DNA of 63,257 bases, the filler included, from Rhabdomonas costata (Eukaryota), in the NCBI GenBank assembly GCA_019059605.1. It is 49 parts of 49 records of this genome, joined end to end, with 100 filler letters (N's around TTAATTAATTAA, not from the genome) between each part and the next. Parts side by side here need not be neighbours in the genome. Positions count along the whole stretch, not along the records: positions 15,513 to 16,705 come from JAHMHO010024160.1; positions 16,806 to 17,998 come from JAHMHO010024161.1; 47 more parts are not named here. One strand, 5' to 3'. The translations under genes were made by a program, and so were the position numbers. Below the pieces are notes generated by a model. That model had not been told where the DNA came from, did no database searches, and saw only the letters and a list, made by a program, of their open reading frames with translations. This document shows positions 1,295-59,378 of this stretch, one piece after another; position 1 is the stretch's first letter; every line of letters starts with the position of its first letter.

Positions 1295-2593
1295 GTTTTG
1301 GGGTTCAGGAATGGGTGGGGGTAAAACCCTTCGATTGCCTTCAGTGATCCACCAACCCGCTCCCTGGGTGATCTCTCACATGAACCCCCCTCCCCCCCCA
1401 AAAAAAAAGCAGAGGAGGGAGCCCGACGACACCGCAGGACGGTGGCGGGTGTCGTAAAGTCGAAAACTGAACTAGATCGCCGGTTGGGACCCATGAAAGA
1501 CACTCTTGAGTTGAATCCATGATCCTGATTTGAGCTTCTGAGCCTCTGCCAGCATGTTTTACCCCGACTCGACAGCCTGAAGTGTCCCGTTTTTTTTGTC
1601 AGCAAATGTGTGTCCCCCCCACCCCCGAAACGGGATGTTAGTGGAAAGTTAAAACACGTAGTATCTTGAGCCGCTGCGCTCCGCGACCCTGAAAATCCTG
1701 ACAAACGCCAAGGGATGTGGTCATTATCCTCTCACAGCAAAAAACCATTGGAATACCAGGGACAGGTGGGTCACCGCTTCTTGGGAGTGGGGTTTGTGTT
1801 GATAGCCTGGCCATCAGTCATCGAAATCATTGAGGGGAGGGAGTCCAAAACAGTTGCACCAATATGGACCCATTTCAAGGCCTTGGGCCAGACCCACCCG
1901 GTTTTTTCCGTCGGGATGCCGGACGGTTGAGACCAAAAGGAACTGCCTGCATTGCCTGCATTGAAGTGGGCTGTGAAGTCTCGATTCTGTGTGTGTTTCC
2001 ACCTCGGAAGCTCATGAAACCAAGCCTGCCCACATAAAACATTTTACACAGCAGTGCCACAAAGTGTGGACGCCTGCGGCAAGGCCTCCACGGCAGAAAA
2101 GCTCTCTTACAAGCAGAAGGATGAACAGCCATGTCCTTAACGCGGGAAGGGGCCCCGGCGCCATCACCGCTGGAGGGGCATCACGAGCGGGGGCTGGACA
2201 ACTTGGCGCCAGAGCGGGGCAGTTTCGCAGCGCTGCAGCCCTCCCCGCACAACGTGCTGCAGTACCAGTACAGGATCTCCTGGATCTGCGAGTTGACCAC
2301 CTCCCCAGAGAAATGCCTGTTGTGCCCTCCAGCGATGAGCCACGTGCTCAGCTTGGCTTCTGGGATGTTCCTGTTCAGAAGGGGATACCAGGAATGTGGA
2401 CCCGAAGCTATTTTGAATGGGAAGACCCAGACAAGGATTGAAGAACATCTTCCTCATGGAAATTCGGGCAACGACATTCCACGAAAAANNNNNNNNNNNN
2501 NNNNNNNNNNNNNNNNNNNNNNNNNNNNNNNNTTAATTAATTAANNNNNNNNNNNNNNNNNNNNNNNNNNNNNNNNNNNNNNNNNNNNGGGGG

Positions 2594-3781
2594 TTGGTTT
2601 TGTTCGACAAGGTTCCTGCGCTTCGCAGCTGCACCGTGCTCTGGAAAGCTTTTGCTGAAAGGTCGATCATCTTGATACCGCAATTGAATCAGCTGAAGTT
2701 GGTGGTTTTGTTCAGCTACTTTTCGCAAGTGCCTTCGACCTTTAAGTTTGTGCACCTTTGGGACGTTTTTGCGTCTAGCTCGGTTTTGCTCATCAAAAAG
2801 GCGAATGCGCTCACTGTTCTCGGTTTTGTGAACACATTCAGCAAAGCTCCTGCCCTCCTGTCTCACAAAGGTCTCTGGCGATCATTGGCAGATCGCGCAA
2901 TAGTTGTGGCACCGCAAATAGGTCGTCAAAGCATCTCGATACTCGTGAGTGGCTTCTCCAAAGTCCCCCAAATCTGTGAATACCCGAAGCTATGGGAGAC
3001 ACTTTCGGCTTCTGTGACACTTTTCGTCCGAAAAATGACACCGAAGGTTCTAGTCGACACCGTTCTTGGGTTCAGCAAAGTGCCGTCGGTTTTGGCTCGC
3101 GTGAACCTTTGGGAAGCGCTTTCGTCTCGAGCAGTTGCGTTGGCTTCCGAATTTACCCTGGAGCACCTGTTGGTCTTGGTACGCTGTTTTTCCAAAATTC
3201 CTGCGACCCACCGGGACCGGGACCTGTGGAGAGTTCTGTTCGATGGTGTGATTCATTCAGTGTCTCAGCTCTCTGAGCGCGATCTTGCCAACTGCGTGAA
3301 TGGCTTTTGTAAAGTTCCGTGTGCTTCTGGACACGCCGAGCTTTGGAATGCTTTGGCGAGGCAGTGCGTATTTTTGATCCCACAACCCTCGCCCCATGGT
3401 ATCGTTATTTTTGTTGGCGGCTTTTCGGGTGCGTCAGCAACAATTGGTGACAAGCAATTCTGGAATGCTCTGGCAAACAAATCCATCCCACTGATTCCAA
3501 AAATGACTTCGCAGGGTTTCCGCATCTTCGTGCATGGCTTTTGCAGCAATCCGGCTACTTATCCACACCGACATCTTTGGAAGGCTGTGGCATATCGTAC
3601 CGTTGCTCTAGCTCCCCATATGACACCTCAGAGCCTCTCCTTGTTTATTATTTGCCTTTCGGAAGTTCCCCTCACCACTGAAAACCGTCAGTTGTGGGAA
3701 GCGTTAGCTGATGCTGTAATACCCCTCATCCAGCAGATGACCGCGCAAGAAATTGCGGACTGTGTGAGTGGGTTTAGCAAG
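2594..3781 (+). CDS. Intronless alpha-solenoid protein fragment with about 10 tandem 39-aa repeats (OPR/HPR/FASTK-like, putative RNA-binding)
   Basis: Open across the whole contig. Repeated unit ..GFSKVP......LW.ALA..A......MT.Q.+.. with a 39-aa period, e.g. FVNTFSKAP/LVSGFSKVP/TVLGFSKVP/CVNGFCKVP. Confidence 0.75.
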
Positions 3782-5687
3782 ANNNNNNNNNNNNNNNNNN
3801 NNNNNNNNNNNNNNNNNNNNNNNNNNTTAATTAATTAANNNNNNNNNNNNNNNNNNNNNNNNNNNNNNNNNNNNNNNNNNNNAAACGCCTGCTGCCAGGG
3901 GTATCCTTGTGCAAATACAAGTGCACATGGTTGTCGTTTTTGAGGAGCACGTGCTGTTTCTCCTTTGCTCATTTGCTGGCCAGCGGACCTCCATTGTTCC
4001 CCTTCCCGCCCACACTCCTCACTCTCTCCCTCAACCATAAGGTTCGGTGAAACGGAGTGGCTAATATCCACCTCTGTCCCGAGCGCATCCCATAAAAAAC
4101 AAATCGATCTTTACGTTTGAAACTTAGAGTTGCGTAGCGCCCTTTTCTCACCGCGCTCCTAACGAATGCGCACCTCCCCTCCCCTCCCGTCTAATTGACG
4201 GAACGCATCCGGGGTTCCAAGGCGCAACAACGCATTTAATGAGATCAGAGTGATCCTATAGCCGCCGACAAATTTATGATGCCCGGTGGATACCTCATGT
4301 TTGTCCATCATGTTTGTCCTAGTGTTTGTGTATCTAACCCGCCAGGTGTTTTTAAGAAATAAACAAAAAAAGGAACTCCTCTCTCCCTCGGGCAATACTG
4401 TCTCTGTGTTCCTTCTTTTGTAGAAACTGATACCTCGCTGGAGAGCATTTCGTCAGCATGACTCCCACCGTGCTGAGCAAGAGCCGAATCGAATCCCACC
4501 CCACTCATATGCTTGCTTCTCCTGTCTTTTTTTTTCTTTGCCCGAGCTCCTTTGAAGCGGTCGGTGGAGGGCAAGAAAGTATGACTGCAGAGACCTTCTC
4601 CTCTTCGTTGAGACTCACTTACAAACAGTCTCATACACTCACAGTGGATGAACAAAGAACGAAGACGATGGAAAACATCCCAACTCATGCGTTCGCACGT
4701 TGTCACACCCAGACTTACTGAAACGTTGCTGCAGACGCATTGGCCCAAGGAAACAAAACAGCCTCCTTTCTAAGATCAAAATGTGTCTGGAAGAAGAATC
4801 CCTCAGTCTCCTCTCTGCCCATCTACACGCGTCGGACACGACTGTGTTACTCACGTTCCCCCTTCCCCCGCTCCCAAAATAGAGCATTCTCTTAGCTGGG
4901 ATGTGGGATGGGCAAAAATCTGCTCCACCTCGAGCAGTTCTGTCCCCTGGAGTTTGCTATCGAGGGTGGGGGATCTGTCTGCTCGCCGTTCTGCGTTGAT
5001 TTTTGTGCATCTTTGCGTTCCTCTTCATTCCTTCTTTTCCATCCGTCGGTTGCCAGCTGCCACTGACAATGGCAGTNNNNNNNNNNNNNNNNNNNNNNNN
5101 NNNNNNNNNNNNNNNNNNNNTTAATTAATTAANNNNNNNNNNNNNNNNNNNNNNNNNNNNNNNNNNNNNNNNNNNNGGGGGGGGTGGGTCAGGACTTGAT
5201 GGAATTAACCTTTAACTTGGAAATCACTTTTCCGAACGATTTTCGCACACACACACATCCTACGACACAAGCACTGACCAGGAACCTTGGACACAGACTC
5301 GGCATGGTTGCTACAGACCCTGACACTGACACTGACTCCGATACACTACGCACCACCACCACCAACAACAACAACAACACCTATAGCATAACCTAACCCT
5401 AACACTATATATAGCATAGCATCACCATAACATAAGAAGAACGCACACGCACGTAAGATACCCACAGCACCCTTGTCCCCCTAGCGCAAGAATCCACCAC
5501 GCCACCCACCTCAGCAACGACCTCGCCGACCCACTCGATACACACGACACCATCCCCAACCAACCCTGCATTCAACCCACACTCTAAGCAAACCGAAGGA
5601 CAAGTACCACACATCATGGGTAAGACAAGACTCGCCGAAGAACCACCGCAACACAACCACATCCCAGCACCCGAAGCACCCATCGTC

Positions 5688-15512: not shown

Positions 15513-15583
15513 AAAACTTCTCCGCCACCAAAACGATCGATTCCCCATGTGGAAACAATCAAATATATGAGATTGTCTAACAT
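15513..15583 (-). CDS. N-terminus of a probable GT-B (GT4-like) glycosyltransferase, truncated by contig end
   Basis: MLDNLIYLIVSTWGIDRFGGGEV: hydrophobic first strand followed by a GGGE loop, as in GT4 N-termini. Only 23 codons are visible. Confidence 0.5.
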
Positions 15584-15687
15584 GTATATATTATTGCTAT
15601 TTTTTAATTGAGTAAGAGTGTTAAATTTTTTATTAATAACCTATAAATAAATATAATTGTTATGTAACATCAGATTTACAATCTTGT

Positions 15688-16164
15688 ATGTTTTATATAA
15701 TTAACCCAATACCAGTCGTTGATTCATATGAAGTTGTTTTTATAACAAAAAATATAGATGTTGCAGAAGAAATGTATATACAATTAATAAATATTATAAA
15801 TGAAGATATAATTCCACATTTAAATATAGATTGTAACATCGAACTACATGATTTTTTTACAAATAAAAAATTTAAATATGTGGATGATAATTTAAAAAAT
15901 AATTTGTTGGTTTTTATGAAAAGATTTCCAGATCTTGTAACTAAATTTCATGAAAAACAAAAAAGAATTAAAGAAGAACGTAAAAGAATTAACTTATTAA
16001 AACAGAAATATAATAAAAATGATATAACAGAAGAACAAGAACATGAATTGTATGATTTAATAAATAGTTTGATACAAAGAAAACAAAAACATAAATATGA
16101 ATTTGTAAGTATCAAAAAATCAGATATTAAAATAATAAATGAATTAAATATAAAATATAATTAA
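15688..16164 (+). CDS. Hypothetical 158-aa I/N/K-rich protein on an AT-rich non-host contig
   Basis: Complete intronless ATG-to-TAA ORF in very AT-rich DNA, where chance ORFs this long are unlikely. Confidence 0.75.
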   Translation: MFYIINPIPVVDSYEVVFITKNIDVAEEMYIQLINIINEDIIPHLNIDCNIELHDFFTNKKFKYVDDNLKNNLLVFMKRFPDLVTKFHEKQKRIKEERKRINLLKQKYNKNDITEEQEHELYDLINSLIQRKQKHKYEFVSIKKSDIKIINELNIKYN

Positions 16165-16316
16165 TAGAAACCTATTCATTTCTGTAAAAAAATAAAGTTA
16201 AATATAAATATAACAAACATAATATAGTGGGAATTTTTATTTATATTTTTAGGACTGTGGAAAAATAAAAAATAGATTTTAAAAGTATATAAAAATATAT
16301 TTTTAACATCTTATTA

Positions 16317-16550
16317 TCAATACAAAAATTTTATTTTTAGTATTAAATATCTAAAAATAAAATTTATAAAAATTCTTATTTCTTCTATGTTATTGTATAT
16401 GTTAGTCACATAGTGACTAACTATGTCATTGTATATTTCATTGACTTTGATATTGACTATGTTATGGTATATGTTAGTGACTATGTGACTAACCATGTCA
16501 TTGTATATTTCATTGACCGAGTATGCGCGCATATTTGGTAATAAAAACAT
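16317..16550 (-). CDS. Hypothetical 77-aa ORF containing a 72-bp (24-aa) tandem duplication
   Basis: VNEIYND(M/I)VSH(I/Y)VTNIY(H/N)NI occurs twice in frame (DNA repeat about 16386-16517). Confidence 0.45.
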   Translation of the reverse strand: MFLLPNMRAYSVNEIYNDMVSHIVTNIYHNIVNIKVNEIYNDIVSHYVTNIYNNIEEIRIFINFIFRYLILKIKFLY

Positions 16551-16560
16551 TATGATGTTA

Positions 16561-16680
16561 ATAATCTTTTTTATAAAATATTTTATTATTTAATAAAAAA
16601 ATTTATAAACATATGTACTAATTATTTTTTTTATAAAATATTTTTTTGTTTTATAAAAAAATCTATAAACATATGTATTA
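16561..16680. repeat. Two tandem 60-bp AT-rich units, each containing a palindrome/hairpin
   Basis: TTTTTTATAAAATA..(A/T)ATAAAAAAAT(T/C)TATAAACATATGTA repeats at exactly 60-bp spacing. The second copy has about 15-bp arms with one mismatch. Confidence 0.8.
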
Positions 16681-16812
16681 AAATTGTAATGTAATACCAA
16701 CCCCCNNNNNNNNNNNNNNNNNNNNNNNNNNNNNNNNNNNNNNNNNNNNTTAATTAATTAANNNNNNNNNNNNNNNNNNNNNNNNNNNNNNNNNNNNNNN
16801 NNNNNTGTTGTT

Positions 16813-30930: not shown

Positions 30931-32117
30931 NNNNNNNNNNNNNNNNNNNNNNNNNNNNNNNNNNNNNNNNNNNNTTAATTAATTAANNNNNNNNNNNNNN
31001 NNNNNNNNNNNNNNNNNNNNNNNNNNNNNNGGGGGGGTGGGGGGCGCGAAAAGGCCGTTGTGGGAACGCCGCGGACTCGTGGCCCATCCATAGTTGTGAC
31101 CACTTCTCCAGCGCTAGCCGCAACCTGGAGCAGTTGCAAAGGTTCTGGGAATGTTGGACCTTCAGAGCCTCCAACCGATGAGCTGCGCCCAGGCGGTGGG
31201 GGCAGGCGACTGGAGACACTGAGACTGGCAAAGGGTGCACAGCGTGAACAAGAAAGGTGGACATCGCAAGAGCGCAAAATTCAGAGATATTCGACCACCA
31301 CCGGCATACTTCTGAATTTTGCGCTGGGCTTTCTTTATATCGGACCGAATTCAACAAGACCCAAACGGCACTCGAAAAGGAAAAAAGCTTTCCAAAGCTC
31401 ATTCCGGGAAAGCAAATACATTGTAAGCTGCAAAGAATACTATCAAAGTTGGGTGTTACGCATACATAACACCCAACTTTGATAGGTTTTGAGCCCCACT
31501 GTGTAACCGCATGTACCGGTTTGATGAGGAAAGAGCTGCTATTTAGACAGACAGCCACGGCGCGGCTTTGCTTATTTGTTACTTTTGTCTTTCCCATCCA
31601 AATTTGAGCAGACAAGAATTCCATAAAAAAGTTCATTTCAAGGCGAATGAACGAATTGTCGGTACAGCCGCAGCAAACCAACGGTCAGGAGCCTCAACAT
31701 CTGGCAGGCTTTTTTCGTTTTCCTCGCGATGATTCCAAGGTGAGTTGTTATCTGAACGGAATGAATGACCAAAGCATTCTGAGCAAGTTCCTTGTTCTGT
31801 GTTTGGGAAGGCAGGGGGAGTCGTGCGAACCCTCCTACAGAAGGAGTCTCAAGCGTTGGGCTGCCTTGTCGGCGTCTTACACGGGTGCGCGGCACCAGGG
31901 CCTCCGATCTCGTCAAAGTTCGTCTCTGCCCCCCGAGGCTAAGCCCAACCCAAGCCGGGAATGGGAAGGCCGAAGGCAAAGCCTCACGCATTTCCGGAAG
32001 CGTTCACCAACCCGCTCGAATTTCTGAACGGCGTGCCCTTCCGAGAAGATCACGAAGTAGTTCCCAGGGAGAGCGTGTGTCTAACGTCTAACGGTGTGAC
32101 CGCCAGGATTCATCGGT

Positions 32118-34744: not shown

Positions 34745-34913
34745 CTGAACGAGCAAGCAGTTCCCTTTCTCTCGACCCTGTCCCAACCGCTGGACGGACT
34801 CACATCCATNNNNNNNNNNNNNNNNNNNNNNNNNNNNNNNNNNNNNNNNNNNNTTAATTAATTAANNNNNNNNNNNNNNNNNNNNNNNNNNNNNNNNNNN
34901 NNNNNNNNNGGTT

Positions 34914-36102
34914 GTGTGTCAGTGTAAAGTTGCAGGGTTTTCTCGTAGCTGCTGCGAACGTGCTGCACAAACTGTTTTGGAGGAACTCTTCCCACTGCTA
35001 GAACGATGGGCTGCTTCCCTCCCGCGTTTTTTGCAACTGCGCTTTCTTCGACCTGCATTGAAGAATGTGTATGACGCCGGATTTTTGTTTCTGCAGATTG
35101 ACCGCAACCCGCAGAGACTTATTGCTCTGTGTCGTCATGCCTGGTTCGAGCTTCACTGTGATACATTTCTTACTCTTCGGTACCAGGTGACCTCCTGCCC
35201 ACCCTGTTCTTTGAATAGTGCCTGGGAACAGCAGACCATAGATTCATTGAAGCAGCTGTTTGCTCGCAGAGGACTCAAGTTGTGGCCTTTCCGCCTGCCT
35301 TCCATATCATCCCGCCCCTCTGCTCATTTTACCATCAAACAGAAAAGCACCCTCTCCAGCTCACCTCCGCAGGTCAAGCTTCGCCCTATTGTGGCTCACC
35401 ACCTTCACCCACTGCGTGGCGTCCTTCGCAGAGCTGGACGTGCGTTGTCCCTTTTGGTGAAGGGCGCCATTGAGGTGGTAAGGTCCTTTCATCCCCTGCA
35501 CACGCCAATGTGGCAACTGCATGTGGGCACTGCCACCTGGTTGGCTGCGCTGGCCAAGTCCGACGTTTGCCTGGGAGAAGTTGCTGAGTTCGACGTTTCA
35601 GACTGTTTCCTGAATACGTCGCGCGACCTAGCTGCTCCTGCTGTGGACTTTTGGGTTGGTCGCCTCAGGCGGCGGGGGCCGCTTTTCTTCTCCATCTCCA
35701 AGGACTCGTCGGATGCGGATTACCTGGGAAAGTCCTTCTCCCCACACTTCTGGTGCTTGTCTGCTACGGAGCTTCTTTCAGTGGTGGAGTGGGAGCTGTC
35801 CCACAACGATTTGTTTGAGTGTGTCAGCGCCATGGCGGAGCGGCCACTGGTGCTGAAGCAGGTGGTCGGGCTCCCGATGGGAGGGCATCTCAGTGCTGCT
35901 CTGGTGGAGCTTGTTGCGTTGCAGCGGGAACTGTTGCAGCCATGGCCCTCCGTGCTGACTGGGCTCCCTTCGGCCCGATATCGCGATAACTTCTTTGTTG
36001 CGGTACCGGCGCCCAGGCTTGCATCAGTGCTGAGTGGTGGCGCTGCTGCGTTGACTGAGCTGCTGGGGATGCCCGTGAAGCTTGAGGGGTCCTCGCAGCA
36101 GC
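34914..36102 (+). mobile_element. Penelope-like element RT (Naiad/Chlamys-like), uninterrupted partial ORF with motif C YRDN
   Basis: Order of motifs: CQC; FLFLQIDRNPQRLIALC (DK-box equivalent); IKQK..KLRPIVA; EFDVSDCFLN (A); KQVVGLPMGGHLS (B'); RYRDNFF (C). Intronless with no stops. Confidence 0.85.
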
Positions 36103-37496: not shown

Positions 37497-37523
37497 GTGG
37501 TGGGTGTGTTTGGTTTGTTGTGG
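37497..37523 (+). other. Whole-genome-amplification primer remnant
   Basis: GTGGTGGGTGTGTTTGG plus a G/T-only tail at the contig start resembles the GenomePlex/PicoPLEX-type adaptor (TGTGTTGGGTGTGTTTGG). Confidence 0.75.
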
Positions 37524-37780
37524 AAGGTTCACCTTCTCGGTGCATTCGTTAGTTGGGACGTTCAATAGACCATTTCCTTGCACGCATCATGAGCTAACAA
37601 TATCTTCATATGCTACACAAAAGAACATGCTTTTCAAAATGTTATTCATTGTGTAACAAATAAACAGCTTTTTCTAAGAAAGTTATAATTAAAACATTAT
37701 GAAAACACCATTTAACTGTTTCCGGCACTGAAGTTTGATATATCATTTGGAAATCATTTGGTTTTAGTTTACTTAATATT

Positions 37781-38242
37781 TGACAAAACTCGGATAAAAA
37801 GGGGCTTAAAATGGACAATAATTCGGTATCTCGTTACCCCCTTCCCCCGCCGGTCAATGTTGGGTTGGTCCCGAAAACGTGCAGTGCCGGGAGGGACACT
37901 TCACCACCATGGTTTTCGATCCAACATTTACGAAACGTGGGCAGGGGTCAAATTTGTAGTAGAAAATCGCTTAAACTGCCACCAAAACGGGCAAAATGGG
38001 CACAAAAAGGGCAAAATGGGTAAGAAATGGGCCACAAAACGCGAAAAACGATCCCAAAATATGGCCCAGACGCCATTGTTGGCGGAAGTGGAGTATTTTA
38101 AAAAAGCTTTATGGTAACCAATCATAACATGGAGGGAACAGGACCTGAGAAGCGTTTGCACGCAAGAAGGTGAATTATTGTCCACTTTTTCGATAGTGAT
38201 GGCACCTTTTTAAATCGAGTTTTGTCATATAAAATGGTCGAA
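37781..38242. repeat. MITE-like dispersed repeat, copy 2
   Basis: Colinear with 30280-30708; same inverted ends (37781.. and ..38227); unrelated AT-rich flanks. Confidence 0.85.
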
Positions 38243-38790
38243 TTGGCGAATAGATTGGCTTGGGTGTTTACCAATGAAGCTCTGGTTTTGCTCTGGTGAA
38301 CAAACATCAAGCGTTGTTGCGCCATCGTTCGACTATTTCTTGCGCATTAAAATGGCTTATTTTGTAGAGGTGCATGATAACGTGTCATTGAAGTGAGACA
38401 CATAAGCTATGAAAACATTTGTTGTGTGCAGATAAAAAGCTTTCATTACAAAACCTGACGCTAAACTGTACCATTGCATTCAAGTGTGTTACAGTGACCT
38501 GAAATATTCCACAACGTTGTAAGTGTACTCTCCTGCTCATTTTTGTATCATCTATCAGTCTCCCTCTTCTATACACTAATGCGCTTAATTTGTTTTAAAT
38601 GCTGTGAAGTCATTGTGGTTCGCGTGTAACAAAGTCTTGTAGAAACGTAGAGTATCAGCTGTCTCTAAAGCATCTTGTCAACGCGTGGTGNNNNNNNNNN
38701 NNNNNNNNNNNNNNNNNNNNNNNNNNNNNNNNNNTTAATTAATTAANNNNNNNNNNNNNNNNNNNNNNNNNNNNNNNNNNNNNNNNNNNN

Positions 38791-43769: not shown

Positions 43770-44430
43770 CTGCATGAAGGAAATGACGATAGTGAAGCGT
43801 AGTCATGTTAAGCAAAAGGCAGAAGCAGGGTTAACACAAGGTCCACTTTAGCTTTTCAATTCNNNNNNNNNNNNNNNNNNNNNNNNNNNNNNNNNNNNNN
43901 NNNNNNTTAATTAATTAANNNNNNNNNNNNNNNNNNNNNNNNNNNNNNNNNNNNNNNNNNNNGGTTGTGGTGAAATCGAACTTCATGAAGTTCGATTTCA
44001 CCACAAGGACTCCTGTCACCTTCTCCTCAGCAATGTCCTGCGCGACCCGGATGTGTACATAAAACATCCAGAACCTGAGGTCGTTGCGTCCTCCATGGTT
44101 CGCGACAGGTTTCGGCCGCAGTGTCAGGCCATCCTCAGCAGGATCTGGACCTTTCCAAAGCTCTGAATGATTACCTGAAAGATTGCAAGTGCAGAAGATG
44201 CCTGTTCAAGCCATAGACTTCCAGCCTCAATGATTTCGGCCACGTCAACAGCATTGACGCGAACAACCTCAAGTGGCCATATATCCGGACGAAAGCAAAG
44301 AGGTTCCGCAAGTTCCACCTTCAGGGGATATCGACCACGTCTTCTAGGAACTGAAGATCTCCATGGACTCTTAAGTCAGATGGCGCGATCGGTCAGATGA
44401 CGCGTCTCACAAAGCGCGAGAACTAGGCCG

Positions 44431-57955: not shown

Positions 57956-58445
57956 CTGAAAGAGTGTGGGCCACGCAGTTACCCAACGATAAAATTCCGC
58001 GAACCGCTCGCTCTCTGACCAAATAAACACACATTTAACCGCAGCTCTCGGTAGTCCGCTTCGAAGCTCCGAAGCACACCCCCACNNNNNNNNNNNNNNN
58101 NNNNNNNNNNNNNNNNNNNNNNNNNNNNNTTAATTAATTAANNNNNNNNNNNNNNNNNNNNNNNNNNNNNNNNNNNNNNNNNNNNTGGGTGGGGGGGTCT
58201 GCACTTTTTGTGAGAAGGGAAAATGTGGTGGGGCGAAAGGCGAACCAGAGCTGGGATAAAATGCTGACTGGCGAGGCCGAAAATGGGATGCAGCCGGGGG
58301 CAAGTTTATCAGAACGGTGCTTAACTGTGAATTGCAACACTGCGCCTGCAGCAGGGTGCAACGGTATGGTCGTGTAGAAGTATTGTTTGGAAGATTGGAA
58401 AAATTGGCTCGGAAACCAAAAGTTGTCGTGTCTCCTTGAAAAAAC

Positions 58446-59378
58446 CTGATTTAAGGCGCGAATCTCGGTGAACACGGAGGTACTGGTAGTGGCCAGAGCT
58501 GCTGCATCAAAGCTGTCGTCTTCCAATGAATGACTCGCTGCGCTGTCGTGATCCACGGCATTCCGAAGATTCACAAGCCCTCGAACCAAGGTTCGCATGT
58601 GAAAAACCAGAATGAACCGGTAGAAGAACAGCTGCACCACGAAGAAAGTCACCGAACATACAGCCACTAATATCGCGGCAACGCGGTTATTCCTCCACAC
58701 TTTTGAGTAGTAGTCTGCCTGAGGAATAACCACAAAGAGCCTCCAGTTCAGTCCACTGGCGTAAAAGTCTGGTCGAATCTTCCCGGAGATGATAACTTGA
58801 AGGACAAAGCATGGGCCAAAGGGGGCGAGCGAGGTTTGCAGCACATTGCCAGGGCCAAAGATGGGGAGAGAAGGCAGCATCGCAATGGTCTCCTGGATCC
58901 CGTTATCGTCACTTGAAACGGATTTCGCAATTAGGCTGCCATCTTCAGTGAAGAGAACAATCATCCCGGTGGTTTCCAATGCTTGGTGGGCAACCTGCAA
59001 TGCATCCTGGATGGTGCTTAAATCATAATCAACGACAACAACTCCCATAACAGAGCCGTTGGTTGACCGCACAGGGACTCCTAACGAAAGCCCATTCGTG
59101 CCTTGAATCGACTCCGCGAAAACCGGGGAGAAGGTTGCTGTGAAGTTCCGGGAGGCGACCGCAACGTACCACGGCCGGAGCAAAGGGTTGAAGGGAGTTA
59201 CCGAGGCAAGTGAAAGCTTCTGCAAATCCGAGTTCACGTTCCAATACTGCAGGGAAAATCGAGTGAGGTTCGTGGTTCCTGAAATGTTCGTAGAATCGCA
59301 GTACCCAATCTGAACAGCACCGGTTAAATCCGTCCTGGCCGCCGCATAGAGCCCTGCGACTGTGGAAAAACCAAACAA
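58446..59378 (-). CDS. dCache sensor domain plus transmembrane helix and HAMP-like linker (receptor-type signalling protein), partial
   Basis: FNPLLRPWY (YDPRxRPWY-like), GVVVVDYDL and NWRLFVVIP..DY motifs, a hydrophobic helix, then SVFTEIRAL. Single long exon ending at GT. Confidence 0.88.

What the first reader, a model, noticed from the sequence alone, without database searches (positions are those of the whole stretch)
15513..16705. AT-rich foreign contig that looks like giant-virus (Mimiviridae-like) DNA
Seen: composition is far more AT-rich than every other contig. It has closely spaced intronless ORFs, including a divergent ORF starting ..IVSTWGIDRFGGGE (GT4-like) and a 158-aa I/N/K-rich orphan, plus AT-only hairpins. 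Known: Mimiviridae are AT-rich, encode glycosyltransferases, use hairpins in 3'-end formation, and include a virus of the euglenozoan Bodo saltans. Inference: an infecting, ingested or endogenised NCLDV in this cell, potentially a new virus-host link.
Basis: partly seen in the sequence, partly recalled or inferred. Interest (0 to 1): 0.7.

Follow-up and report, generated by a model that had tools for sequence, protein, structure and literature searches.

The report
AT-rich orphan contig, origin unresolved
One 1.2-kb piece of very AT-rich DNA sits among ordinary eukaryotic contigs and carries one real gene with no known relatives, but nothing in it shows whether it comes from a giant virus, an organelle or another AT-rich organism.

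Summary
The observation largely holds. The contig at 15513-16705 has 19.3% GC, against 40.1-60.1% in the other 48 contigs of the window. Its 158-codon ORF is far longer than chance allows and has coding-type codon periodicity. Its AT-only hairpins exceed shuffled controls.

The interpretation cannot be tested on 1193 bases. The ORF has no relative in Pfam, PHROGs, NCBIfam, 5.8 billion clustered proteins, 1.84 billion representatives, IMG/VR, JGI metagenome contigs, GTDB genome contigs or phage records.

The "GT4-like" gene is a 23-codon stub that runs off the contig. No family, structure or motif search supports the label.

There is no giant-virus marker gene and no exact mimivirid early-promoter motif. 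Only 46% of the contig is coding.

No whole assembly was available for binning. A giant-virus origin remains my single most likely reading, at about 0.35. Organelle, AT-rich eukaryote and bacterium/phage origins are not excluded.

The last 10 bases of the contig are a primer remnant from whole-genome amplification. Interest is low to moderate.

The parts
15513..16705 (.). Whole AT-rich contig (1193 bp, 19.3% GC), bounded by N spacers
15513..15583 (-). 23-codon N-terminal stub (MLDNLIYLIVSTWGIDRFGGGEV) that runs off the contig end. It has 38% GC and GC3 of 8/23. It may be a real gene start with a Gly-rich motif, but its family is unassigned.
   Evidence: no hits
15584..15687 (.). 104-nt divergent intergenic region (17% GC), the presumed promoter region for both ORFs. 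It has no Shine-Dalgarno sequence and no exact AAAATTGA.
15688..16164 (+). 158-aa I/K/N-rich orphan gene ending in TAA followed directly by TAG. The predicted fold is helical, with only residues about 90-130 and 141-158 modelled confidently.
16274..16311 (+). AT hairpin (16 pairs with one bulge, 4-nt loop) in the 3' flank of the orphan gene
16326..16365 (+). Perfect 15-bp hairpin with a 10-nt loop, 162 nt after the stop codon. It is a candidate transcript-end signal.
16385..16528 (.). Tandem repeat block, called as period 36 with 3.5 copies by TRF. Two 72-nt units differ at 15 of 72 positions and contain the palindromes 16401-16421 and 16473-16493. GC is 29%.
16522..16533 (.). Perfect 12-nt palindrome with a GCGCGC core, next to the repeat block
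16559..16678 (.). Two tandem 60-nt units (88% identical) that also form a 52-nt imperfect inverted repeat and a 13-bp perfect hairpin (16626-16661)
16696..16705 (-). G/T-only 10-mer (read on the minus strand). This is a remnant of a degenerate amplification primer, not native sequence.

Best explanation
Shown: this is real biological DNA, not an amplification by-product. It was co-amplified with a eukaryotic genome of about 52% GC and comes from a replicon of very different composition (19% GC). It holds one real protein-coding orphan gene (158 aa, helical C-terminal half) and possibly the first 23 codons of a second, divergent gene. It also holds a 541-nt non-coding stretch built of AT hairpins, tandem repeats and palindromes.

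Inferred: the most likely single source is a large AT-rich DNA virus of eukaryotes (Nucleocytoviricota, mimivirid-like) or one of its satellite elements. On this reading the virus was present in or on the sorted cell, as an infection or as ingested material. The two genes are transcribed outward from the 104-nt AT-rich spacer. The orphan's transcript ends at one of the two strong hairpins, 110-200 nt after its stop codon, as under the mimivirid 'hairpin rule'. The repeat block is one of the repeat-rich non-coding stretches that such genomes contain.

The origin is a plurality guess, not a demonstrated assignment.
For: - Composition: 19.3% GC against 40.1-60.1% in the other 48 contigs.
- Real gene: 0 of 5000 shuffles, under each of four shuffle schemes, reach 159 codons, and GC at codon positions 1/2/3 is 33/12/9%.
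- Same amplification chemistry as the host contigs: the right end carries the same G/T-only 10-mer type as 52 of 98 contig ends, against a 1.2% internal background.
- Orphan status fits viral dark matter: no hit in 1.84 billion representatives or in the 5.8 billion clustered proteins.
- Hairpins after the ORF exceed chance.
- No Shine-Dalgarno sequence before either ATG. There are 12 sigma-70-like sites against 15.8 expected and no intrinsic terminators.
- No tRNA, rRNA or other Rfam family.
- The one Trp codon is TGG, not TGA.
- The BsV paper (PMC5871332, passages read) reports 25.3% GC against about 50% in the host, 40% orphan ORFs, palindromes after ORFs and repeat-rich non-coding stretches.
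- Priet et al. 2015 (PMC4402537, passages read) describe hairpin-defined polyadenylation in Mimiviridae.
Against: - No NCLDV hallmark gene or any viral homologue. IMG/VR gave nothing for the ORF, for the stub motif or for the palindrome.
- BFVD fold search gave 0 matches at E <= 0.001, on a weak model of mean pLDDT 60.5.
- There is no exact AAAATTGA in the contig. It has 7 one-mismatch sites, but the window as a whole has 74 against 76.9 expected.
- Coding fraction is 46%, against 85% reported for BsV.
- The strongest hairpin lies 162 nt after the stop codon rather than close to it.
- AT-rich hairpins and tandem repeats are also typical of organelle non-coding regions and AT-rich eukaryotic intergenic DNA (my own knowledge).
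- ESM Atlas best score was 0.79, at chance level, and to phage hypothetical proteins.
Confidence: 0.35

Rival explanations
1. A piece of an AT-rich organelle genome: the cell's own mitochondrion, or a mitochondrion or plastid of prey. On this reading it was caught in a non-coding repeat or control region next to a fast-evolving lineage-specific ORF.
For: Every eukaryotic single-cell assembly contains mitochondrial DNA, which is usually much more AT-rich than the nucleus (my own knowledge). The 541-nt ORF-free stretch holds tandem repeats, palindromes and hairpins and folds strongly as single-stranded DNA (z = -8.3). There is no Shine-Dalgarno sequence. Orphan ORFs are common in protist organelle genomes (my own knowledge).
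Against: There is no tRNA, rRNA or any Rfam family in the contig, and neither ORF matches a Pfam family. The ORF is hydrophilic (GRAVY -0.54) and its sense strand is A-rich, unlike typical membrane-protein organelle genes. The one Trp codon is TGG, and table 4 does not lengthen either ORF. The apparent match to the kinetoplast minicircle 12-mer at 16693-16704 has 2 mismatches and lies in the primer-derived end.
Confidence: 0.25
2. Nuclear or nucleomorph DNA of a different, very AT-rich eukaryote, such as prey, a symbiont or a co-sorted cell. On this reading it is a short gene with long AT-rich intergenic DNA.
For: The 46% coding fraction and the intergenic GC of 5-19% resemble AT-rich eukaryotic genomes. 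I/N/K-rich orphan proteins are typical of such genomes (my own knowledge). There is no Shine-Dalgarno sequence and there are no bacterial-type terminators.
Against: A 104-nt divergent spacer is very short for a eukaryotic bidirectional promoter. The ORF's GC (18%) is hardly above that of the flanks, whereas AT-rich eukaryotes usually show a clear exon/intergenic contrast (my own knowledge). There is no homologue among the 15 billion predicted proteins behind.
Confidence: 0.15
3. DNA of an AT-rich bacterium (symbiont or prey) or of its phage.
For: Bacteria and phages are the commonest contaminants of single-cell protist assemblies (my own knowledge). The ESM Atlas nearest clusters and the top BFVD rows are phage hypothetical proteins, but at chance-level scores.
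Against: Neither the ORF nor the stub motif was found in one genome for each of 185,579 prokaryote species. There was no PHROG or NCBIfam hit. There was no tblastn hit in 50,697 phage records, and blastn gave only a 36-nt AT-rich chance match. There is no Shine-Dalgarno sequence, no excess of sigma-70-like sites and no intrinsic terminator. 19% GC is extremely rare in bacteria, and 541 nt without a gene is unusual for them (my own knowledge).
Confidence: 0.15
4. An artefact: template-independent AT-rich synthesis during amplification, or a chimera in which the GC-richer left 45 nt comes from the host.
For: The assembly comes from primer-based whole-genome amplification. The left end has 38% GC and GC3 of 8/23, against 9% in the orphan ORF. 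A 13-codon stop-free run across a junction would not be unlikely by chance.
Against: A 174-codon open frame with codon periodicity cannot arise from template-free synthesis. The sequence is complex, not a simple repeat. The left end matches no other contig of the window, with a best match of 13 nt. Most third positions in the stub are still A or T (15 of 23).
Confidence: 0.05

Closest known systems
Genomes of Mimiviridae/Klosneuvirinae-type giant viruses, for example Bodo saltans virus (PMC5871332)
   Same: Very low GC compared with a host of about 50% GC, many orphan ORFs, palindromic hairpins after ORFs and repeat-rich non-coding stretches (passages read). The contig shows each of these.
   Different: There is no hallmark gene and no homologue in IMG/VR. 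There is no exact AAAAATTGA early promoter. Coding fraction is 46% rather than 85%, and GC is 19.3%, lower than the 25.3% of BsV. The hairpin lies 162 nt from the stop codon.
Mimivirid 'hairpin rule' polyadenylation signals (Priet et al. 2015, PMC4402537; Byrne et al. 2009, seen only as a citation)
   Same: AT-rich, sequence-unspecific palindromes lie downstream of a gene, with stems of 15-16 pairs.
   Different: No transcript ends are known here. Similar hairpins occur in any very AT-rich non-coding DNA. The Byrne paper was not held, so its quantitative criteria could not be applied.
Non-coding repeat or control regions of AT-rich mitochondrial genomes
   Same: Tandem repeats, nested palindromes, a lone GC-cluster palindrome and strong single-strand folding.
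   Different: No mitochondrial gene or RNA lies next to it. The adjoining ORF is hydrophilic and has no relatives.
GT4-family (GT-B fold) glycosyltransferase N-termini
   Same: By recalled pattern only: a hydrophobic first strand is followed after about 7 residues by GG-x-E.
   Different: Only 23 residues exist. Pfam, NCBIfam, PDB and phage searches gave 0 hits at E <= 10. The motif WGIDRFGGGE occurs nowhere in three contig collections.

Membership tests
Nucleocytoviricota (Mimiviridae-like) genome fragment | Presence of hallmark genes (MCP, PolB, A32 ATPase, VLTF3, viral RNAP) on the contig or on co-binned contigs | tested here: not met
   Neither ORF matches any Pfam family. The contig has room for only 1.1 genes. 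Co-binned contigs could not be examined because no assembly is held.
Nucleocytoviricota (Mimiviridae-like) genome fragment | Protein homology to any known giant-virus protein | tested here: not met
   IMG/VR scan found no relative. There were 0 hits in 1.84 billion representatives. BFVD fold search gave 0 matches at E <= 0.001.
Nucleocytoviricota (Mimiviridae-like) genome fragment | Early promoter motif AAAATTGA / AAAAATTGA upstream of genes (PMC4402537, PMC5871332) | tested here: not met
   There are 0 exact matches in 15513-16705. The 7 one-mismatch sites are not above expectation for the window. The motif marks only a subset of genes, so its absence before two genes is weak evidence.
Nucleocytoviricota (Mimiviridae-like) genome fragment | Hairpin-forming palindrome after the ORF | tested here: inconclusive
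   Hairpins at 16274-16311 and 16326-16365 exceed shuffles. They lie 110-200 nt from the stop codon and are not specific to viruses.
Nucleocytoviricota (Mimiviridae-like) genome fragment | High coding density (about 85-90%) | tested here: not met
   548 of 1193 nt (46%) are coding, against 85% in BsV. One 1.2-kb sample is a small basis.
GT4 glycosyltransferase | Match to a GT4/GT1 N-terminal domain profile or to a solved GT-B structure | tested here: not met
   There were 0 families or chains at E <= 10 in Pfam, NCBIfam and PDB sequences. Six word-sharing candidates did not score. With only 23 residues the test has little power.
Mitochondrial / plastid genome | Organellar genes, rRNA or tRNA | tested here: not met
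   Rfam gave 0 matches and ARAGORN found 0 genes. There were no Pfam hits.
Mitochondrial / plastid genome | TGA read as Trp (table 4) in AT-rich mitochondria | tested here: inconclusive
   Table 4 lengthens neither ORF. The single Trp codon is TGG. This is one codon only.
Kinetoplast minicircle | Universal minicircle 12-mer (recalled motif) | tested here: not met
   The site at 16693-16704 has 2 mismatches. The window has 9 such sites against 5.1 expected, and this one lies in the primer-derived G/T end.
Bacterial or phage DNA | Shine-Dalgarno sequence, sigma-70 promoters, intrinsic terminators, homologues in prokaryote genomes or phages | tested here: not met
   signals; no homologues

The most novel reading that the evidence does not exclude
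The contig is a fragment of a so far unsampled, extremely AT-rich (about 19% GC) giant-virus lineage that was infecting, or had just been ingested by, the sorted protist cell. On this reading its genes have no relatives even among the metagenomic giant-virus contigs of IMG/VR, and it would give a new virus-host link.
Probability: 0.3. Interest if true: 0.5.

Novelty: new member of a known kind. Interest (0 to 1): 0.22.

Why it matters
If other low-GC contigs of the same assembly carry giant-virus marker genes, this cell would document a physical link between a protist and a very AT-rich, divergent giant virus. Such links are still scarce.

On its own, the 1.2-kb fragment adds only one more orphan gene and a set of AT hairpins and repeats, and cannot support that claim.

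The practical lesson is that compositional outliers in amplified single-cell assemblies need whole-assembly binning before any virus call. The first and last 10 bases of many contigs here are also primer-derived, not genomic.

Tried and rejected
1. Kinetoplast minicircle idea. The right end, read on the minus strand, resembles the recalled universal minicircle 12-mer. It has 2 mismatches and is one of the G/T-only primer 10-mers found at 52 of 98 contig ends. Rejected.

2. Alternative genetic codes. Table 4 does not extend the two ORFs. The only new long frames are the antisense of the orphan ORF (155 aa, one TGA read as W) and a 91-aa frame across the tandem repeats. The two 72-nt repeat units differ at 15 of 72 positions. 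Comparing by eye the 24 residues of each unit that lie in the 77-aa minus-strand ORF, I counted 6 amino-acid differences, so I treat that ORF (16317-16550) as repeat-generated.

3. Homology searches for the orphan ORF all came back empty: Pfam, PHROGs, NCBIfam, word-indexed 5.8 billion clusters, exhaustive 1.84 billion representatives, IMG/VR, JGI metagenome contigs, GTDB contigs and phage tblastn.

4. Structure route. The single-sequence AF2 model had mean pLDDT 60.5, with residues 1-66 below 50. BFVD Foldseek gave nothing at E <= 0.001. ESM Atlas best score was 0.79, at chance level.

5. Stub motif hunts. WGIDRFGGGE back-translated gave 0 hits in viral, metagenome and genome contigs. The shorter pattern for IDRFGGG gave 13 IMG/VR hits. 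All were in contigs of 37-63% GC, none at an N-terminus after a hydrophobic strand, and all were judged chance.

6. DNA similarity. Phage records gave six 36-nt AT-rich matches in Lak phages, and plasmid records gave one 110-nt match at 72%. All were judged chance.

7. Host lineage. A recalled dinoflagellate spliced-leader motif and a recalled euglenozoan spliced-leader core each gave 0 matches. A dCache-bearing host fragment found no homologues among longer proteins. The lineage remains unknown.

8. Earlier notes of this scan held nothing on this genome or sequence. A word search returned only unrelated giant-virus windows.

9. Whole-assembly binning and read mapping could not be done.

Full report
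**What the window is.** The window is not one locus. It is 49 contigs of about 1193 bp joined by N/TTAATTAATTAA spacers. The finding covers exactly one contig, 15513-16705. Everything below therefore rests on these 1193 bases and on public collections.

**Composition.** The contig has 19.3% GC, while the other 48 contigs range from 40.1% to 60.1%. The outlier status is real and extreme. At a 100-nt scale, GC runs from 5% to 32%. The only GC-richer parts are the left 70 nt and the tandem-repeat block.

**Contig ends.**
- 52 of 98 contig ends in the window start with at least 8 G/T-only bases, and 51 with at least 10. Only 1.2% of internal positions do so.
- This is the footprint of a degenerate G/T primer used in whole-genome amplification. 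The chemistry is my inference.
- The target contig's right end (16696-16705, read on the minus strand) is such a 10-mer. Those bases are not native sequence.
- It also means the AT-rich DNA went through the same amplification as the eukaryotic contigs.
- This removed my own interim idea that the end was a kinetoplast minicircle universal sequence. That site has 2 mismatches, and the window has 9 such sites against 5.1 expected.

**Genes.**
- The ORF at 15688-16164 (+) encodes 158 aa with I 14.6%, K 13.3%, N 10.8% and GRAVY -0.54.
- Its stop-free run of 174 codons was never approached in shuffles. None of 5000 mononucleotide shuffles (maximum 142) or 5000 first-order Markov shuffles (maximum 155) of the contig reached it. 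None of 5000 shuffles of each kind made with the ORF's own A-rich composition did either (maxima 97 and 102).
- GC at codon positions 1/2/3 is 33/12/9%. I take it to be a real gene.
- The second 'ORF' is only the first 23 codons of a minus-strand frame (ATG at 15583) that runs off the contig, reading MLDNLIYLIVSTWGIDRFGGGEV.
- The stub's GC (38%) is partly explained by Gly, Trp and Arg codons. Its GC3 (8 of 23) is nevertheless higher than the orphan's 9%.
- The stub could be a gene of a different expression or age class. Less likely, the left 45 nt could be a chimeric end. It matches no other contig of the window.
- The two starts are divergent and 104 nt apart. Neither is preceded by a Shine-Dalgarno sequence.
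- The other 541 nt (45%) hold no convincing ORF. The 77-aa minus-strand ORF at 16317-16550 lies across the tandem repeats. The two repeat units differ at 15 of 72 positions. By my own comparison of the translation, the 24 residues from each unit that lie in that ORF differ at 6 positions, so I regard the ORF as a by-product of the repeat.
- The coding fraction is 46%. 'Closely spaced intronless ORFs' is therefore an overstatement.

**Non-coding architecture.**
- The 3' flank of the orphan gene folds better than all 200 shuffles (z = -3.68).
- It has two strong AT hairpins. One is at 16274-16311, with 16 pairs. The other is at 16326-16365, with a perfect 15-bp stem and a 10-nt loop.
- The 15-bp stem exceeds the best stem in all 300 shuffles, whose maximum was 14.
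- Next comes a tandem block at 16385-16528. TRF calls it as period 36 with 3.5 copies, and the 72-nt units contain the palindromes 16401-16421 and 16473-16493.
- A perfect 12-nt palindrome with a GCGCGC core follows at 16522-16533.
- Then come two 60-nt tandem units at 16559-16678, 88% identical, with a 13-bp hairpin.
- As single-stranded DNA, 16380-16700 folds with z = -8.3.

**Searches for relatives of the orphan protein.** It has no match in any of these:
- Pfam, PHROGs or NCBIfam.
- The word-indexed search of 5.8 billion clusters.
- The exhaustive phmmer search of 1.84 billion representatives.
- IMG/VR, JGI metagenome contigs or one genome for each of 185,579 prokaryote species.
- Phage records by tblastn.

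The ESM Atlas best score is 0.79, at chance level. The single-sequence AF2 model has mean pLDDT 60.5, with residues 1-66 below 50 and a confident helical stretch at about 90-130. It finds nothing in BFVD at E <= 0.001.

**Searches for relatives of the stub.**
- It gets 0 hits at E <= 10 in Pfam, NCBIfam, PDB sequences and phages.
- The 42-codon frame containing it gets nothing among longer proteins.
- Its motif WGIDRFGGGE, back-translated, occurs nowhere in the viral, metagenome or genome contig collections.
- A shorter pattern gave 13 IMG/VR hits that are plainly chance.
- Nucleotide searches against phages and plasmids gave only short AT-rich chance matches.
- The 'GT4-like' label therefore rests only on a recalled pattern, a hydrophobic strand followed by GG-x-E, and is unsupported.

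**Giant-virus reading.**

Compatible with it:
- The GC gap to the host, the orphan gene, the short divergent spacer, the hairpins after the ORF and the repeat-rich non-coding DNA.
- The BsV paper describes all of these. [quoted passage not shown]
- Priet et al. 2015 describe hairpin-defined polyadenylation in Mimiviridae (PMC4402537, passages read).

Not compatible or missing:
- There is no hallmark gene and no viral homologue.
- There is no exact AAAATTGA. The 7 one-mismatch sites in the contig are unremarkable, since the window has 74 against 76.9 expected.
- Coding density is 46% against 85%.
- The best hairpin is 162 nt from the stop codon.

**Other origins.**
- Bacterial or phage origin is disfavoured. 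There are no homologues and no Shine-Dalgarno sequence. There are 12 sigma-70-like sites against 15.8 expected and 0 intrinsic terminators.
- Organelle origin is disfavoured by the absence of any RNA gene or organellar protein, by the hydrophilic ORF and by TGG for Trp. It keeps a high prior because every such assembly contains mitochondrial DNA, and the repeat and hairpin block looks like a control region.
- An AT-rich foreign eukaryote cannot be excluded.
- A template-free amplification product is excluded by the long periodic ORF.

**Host.** The other contigs are eukaryotic. One has WD40 repeats (E = 3.8e-11). One has a dCache-like ectodomain with a hydrophobic tail. One is a fully open contig of 38-aa FAST/RESC6-like repeats. 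Recalled spliced-leader motifs of dinoflagellates and euglenozoans are absent from the window.

**Verdict.** My odds are:
- Giant virus or its satellite: about 0.35.
- Organelle: 0.25.
- AT-rich eukaryote: 0.15.
- Bacterium or phage: 0.15.
- Artefact or chimera: 0.05.
- Other: the remainder.

The fragment alone is of low interest. Its value lies in prompting a whole-assembly search for low-GC contigs with viral markers.

Noticed in passing
ends of most contigs, e.g. 2589-2598, 5177-5186, 31031-31040, 16696-16705: 52 of 98 contig ends begin with at least 8 G/T-only bases, and 51 with at least 10, against 1.2% of internal positions. These are remnants of a degenerate G/T amplification primer left untrimmed in the assembly. 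They can mimic G-rich motifs such as telomere-like or minicircle-like sequences.
   Followed up: yes
2589-3782 (+): The whole contig is one open frame of about 38-aa helical repeats (GFSKVP...LW..LA). It has no Pfam hit. ESM Atlas neighbours score 0.93-0.94 and carry FAST_1/RESC6 domains, so it is probably an organellar RNA-binding repeat protein of the host.
   Followed up: partly
34910-36102 (+): The whole contig is one open 397-codon frame without any Pfam match at E <= 0.01. It is an uncharacterised host or mobile-element protein.
   Followed up: partly
58186-59378 (-): An open frame spans the whole contig, with a dCache_1-like ectodomain (E = 1.1e-8, below Pfam's cut-off) followed by a hydrophobic segment. 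No homologue was found among longer proteins.
   Followed up: partly
43963-44002: The contig starts with a G/T primer-like run that leads straight into a perfect inverted repeat of about 34 nt. This looks like a snap-back chimera from amplification.
   Followed up: no
37497-38690: This is the second-lowest GC contig of the window (40.1%). Its ORFs are short (at most 133 aa) and unremarkable, and it is not comparable to the 19% GC contig.
   Followed up: partly
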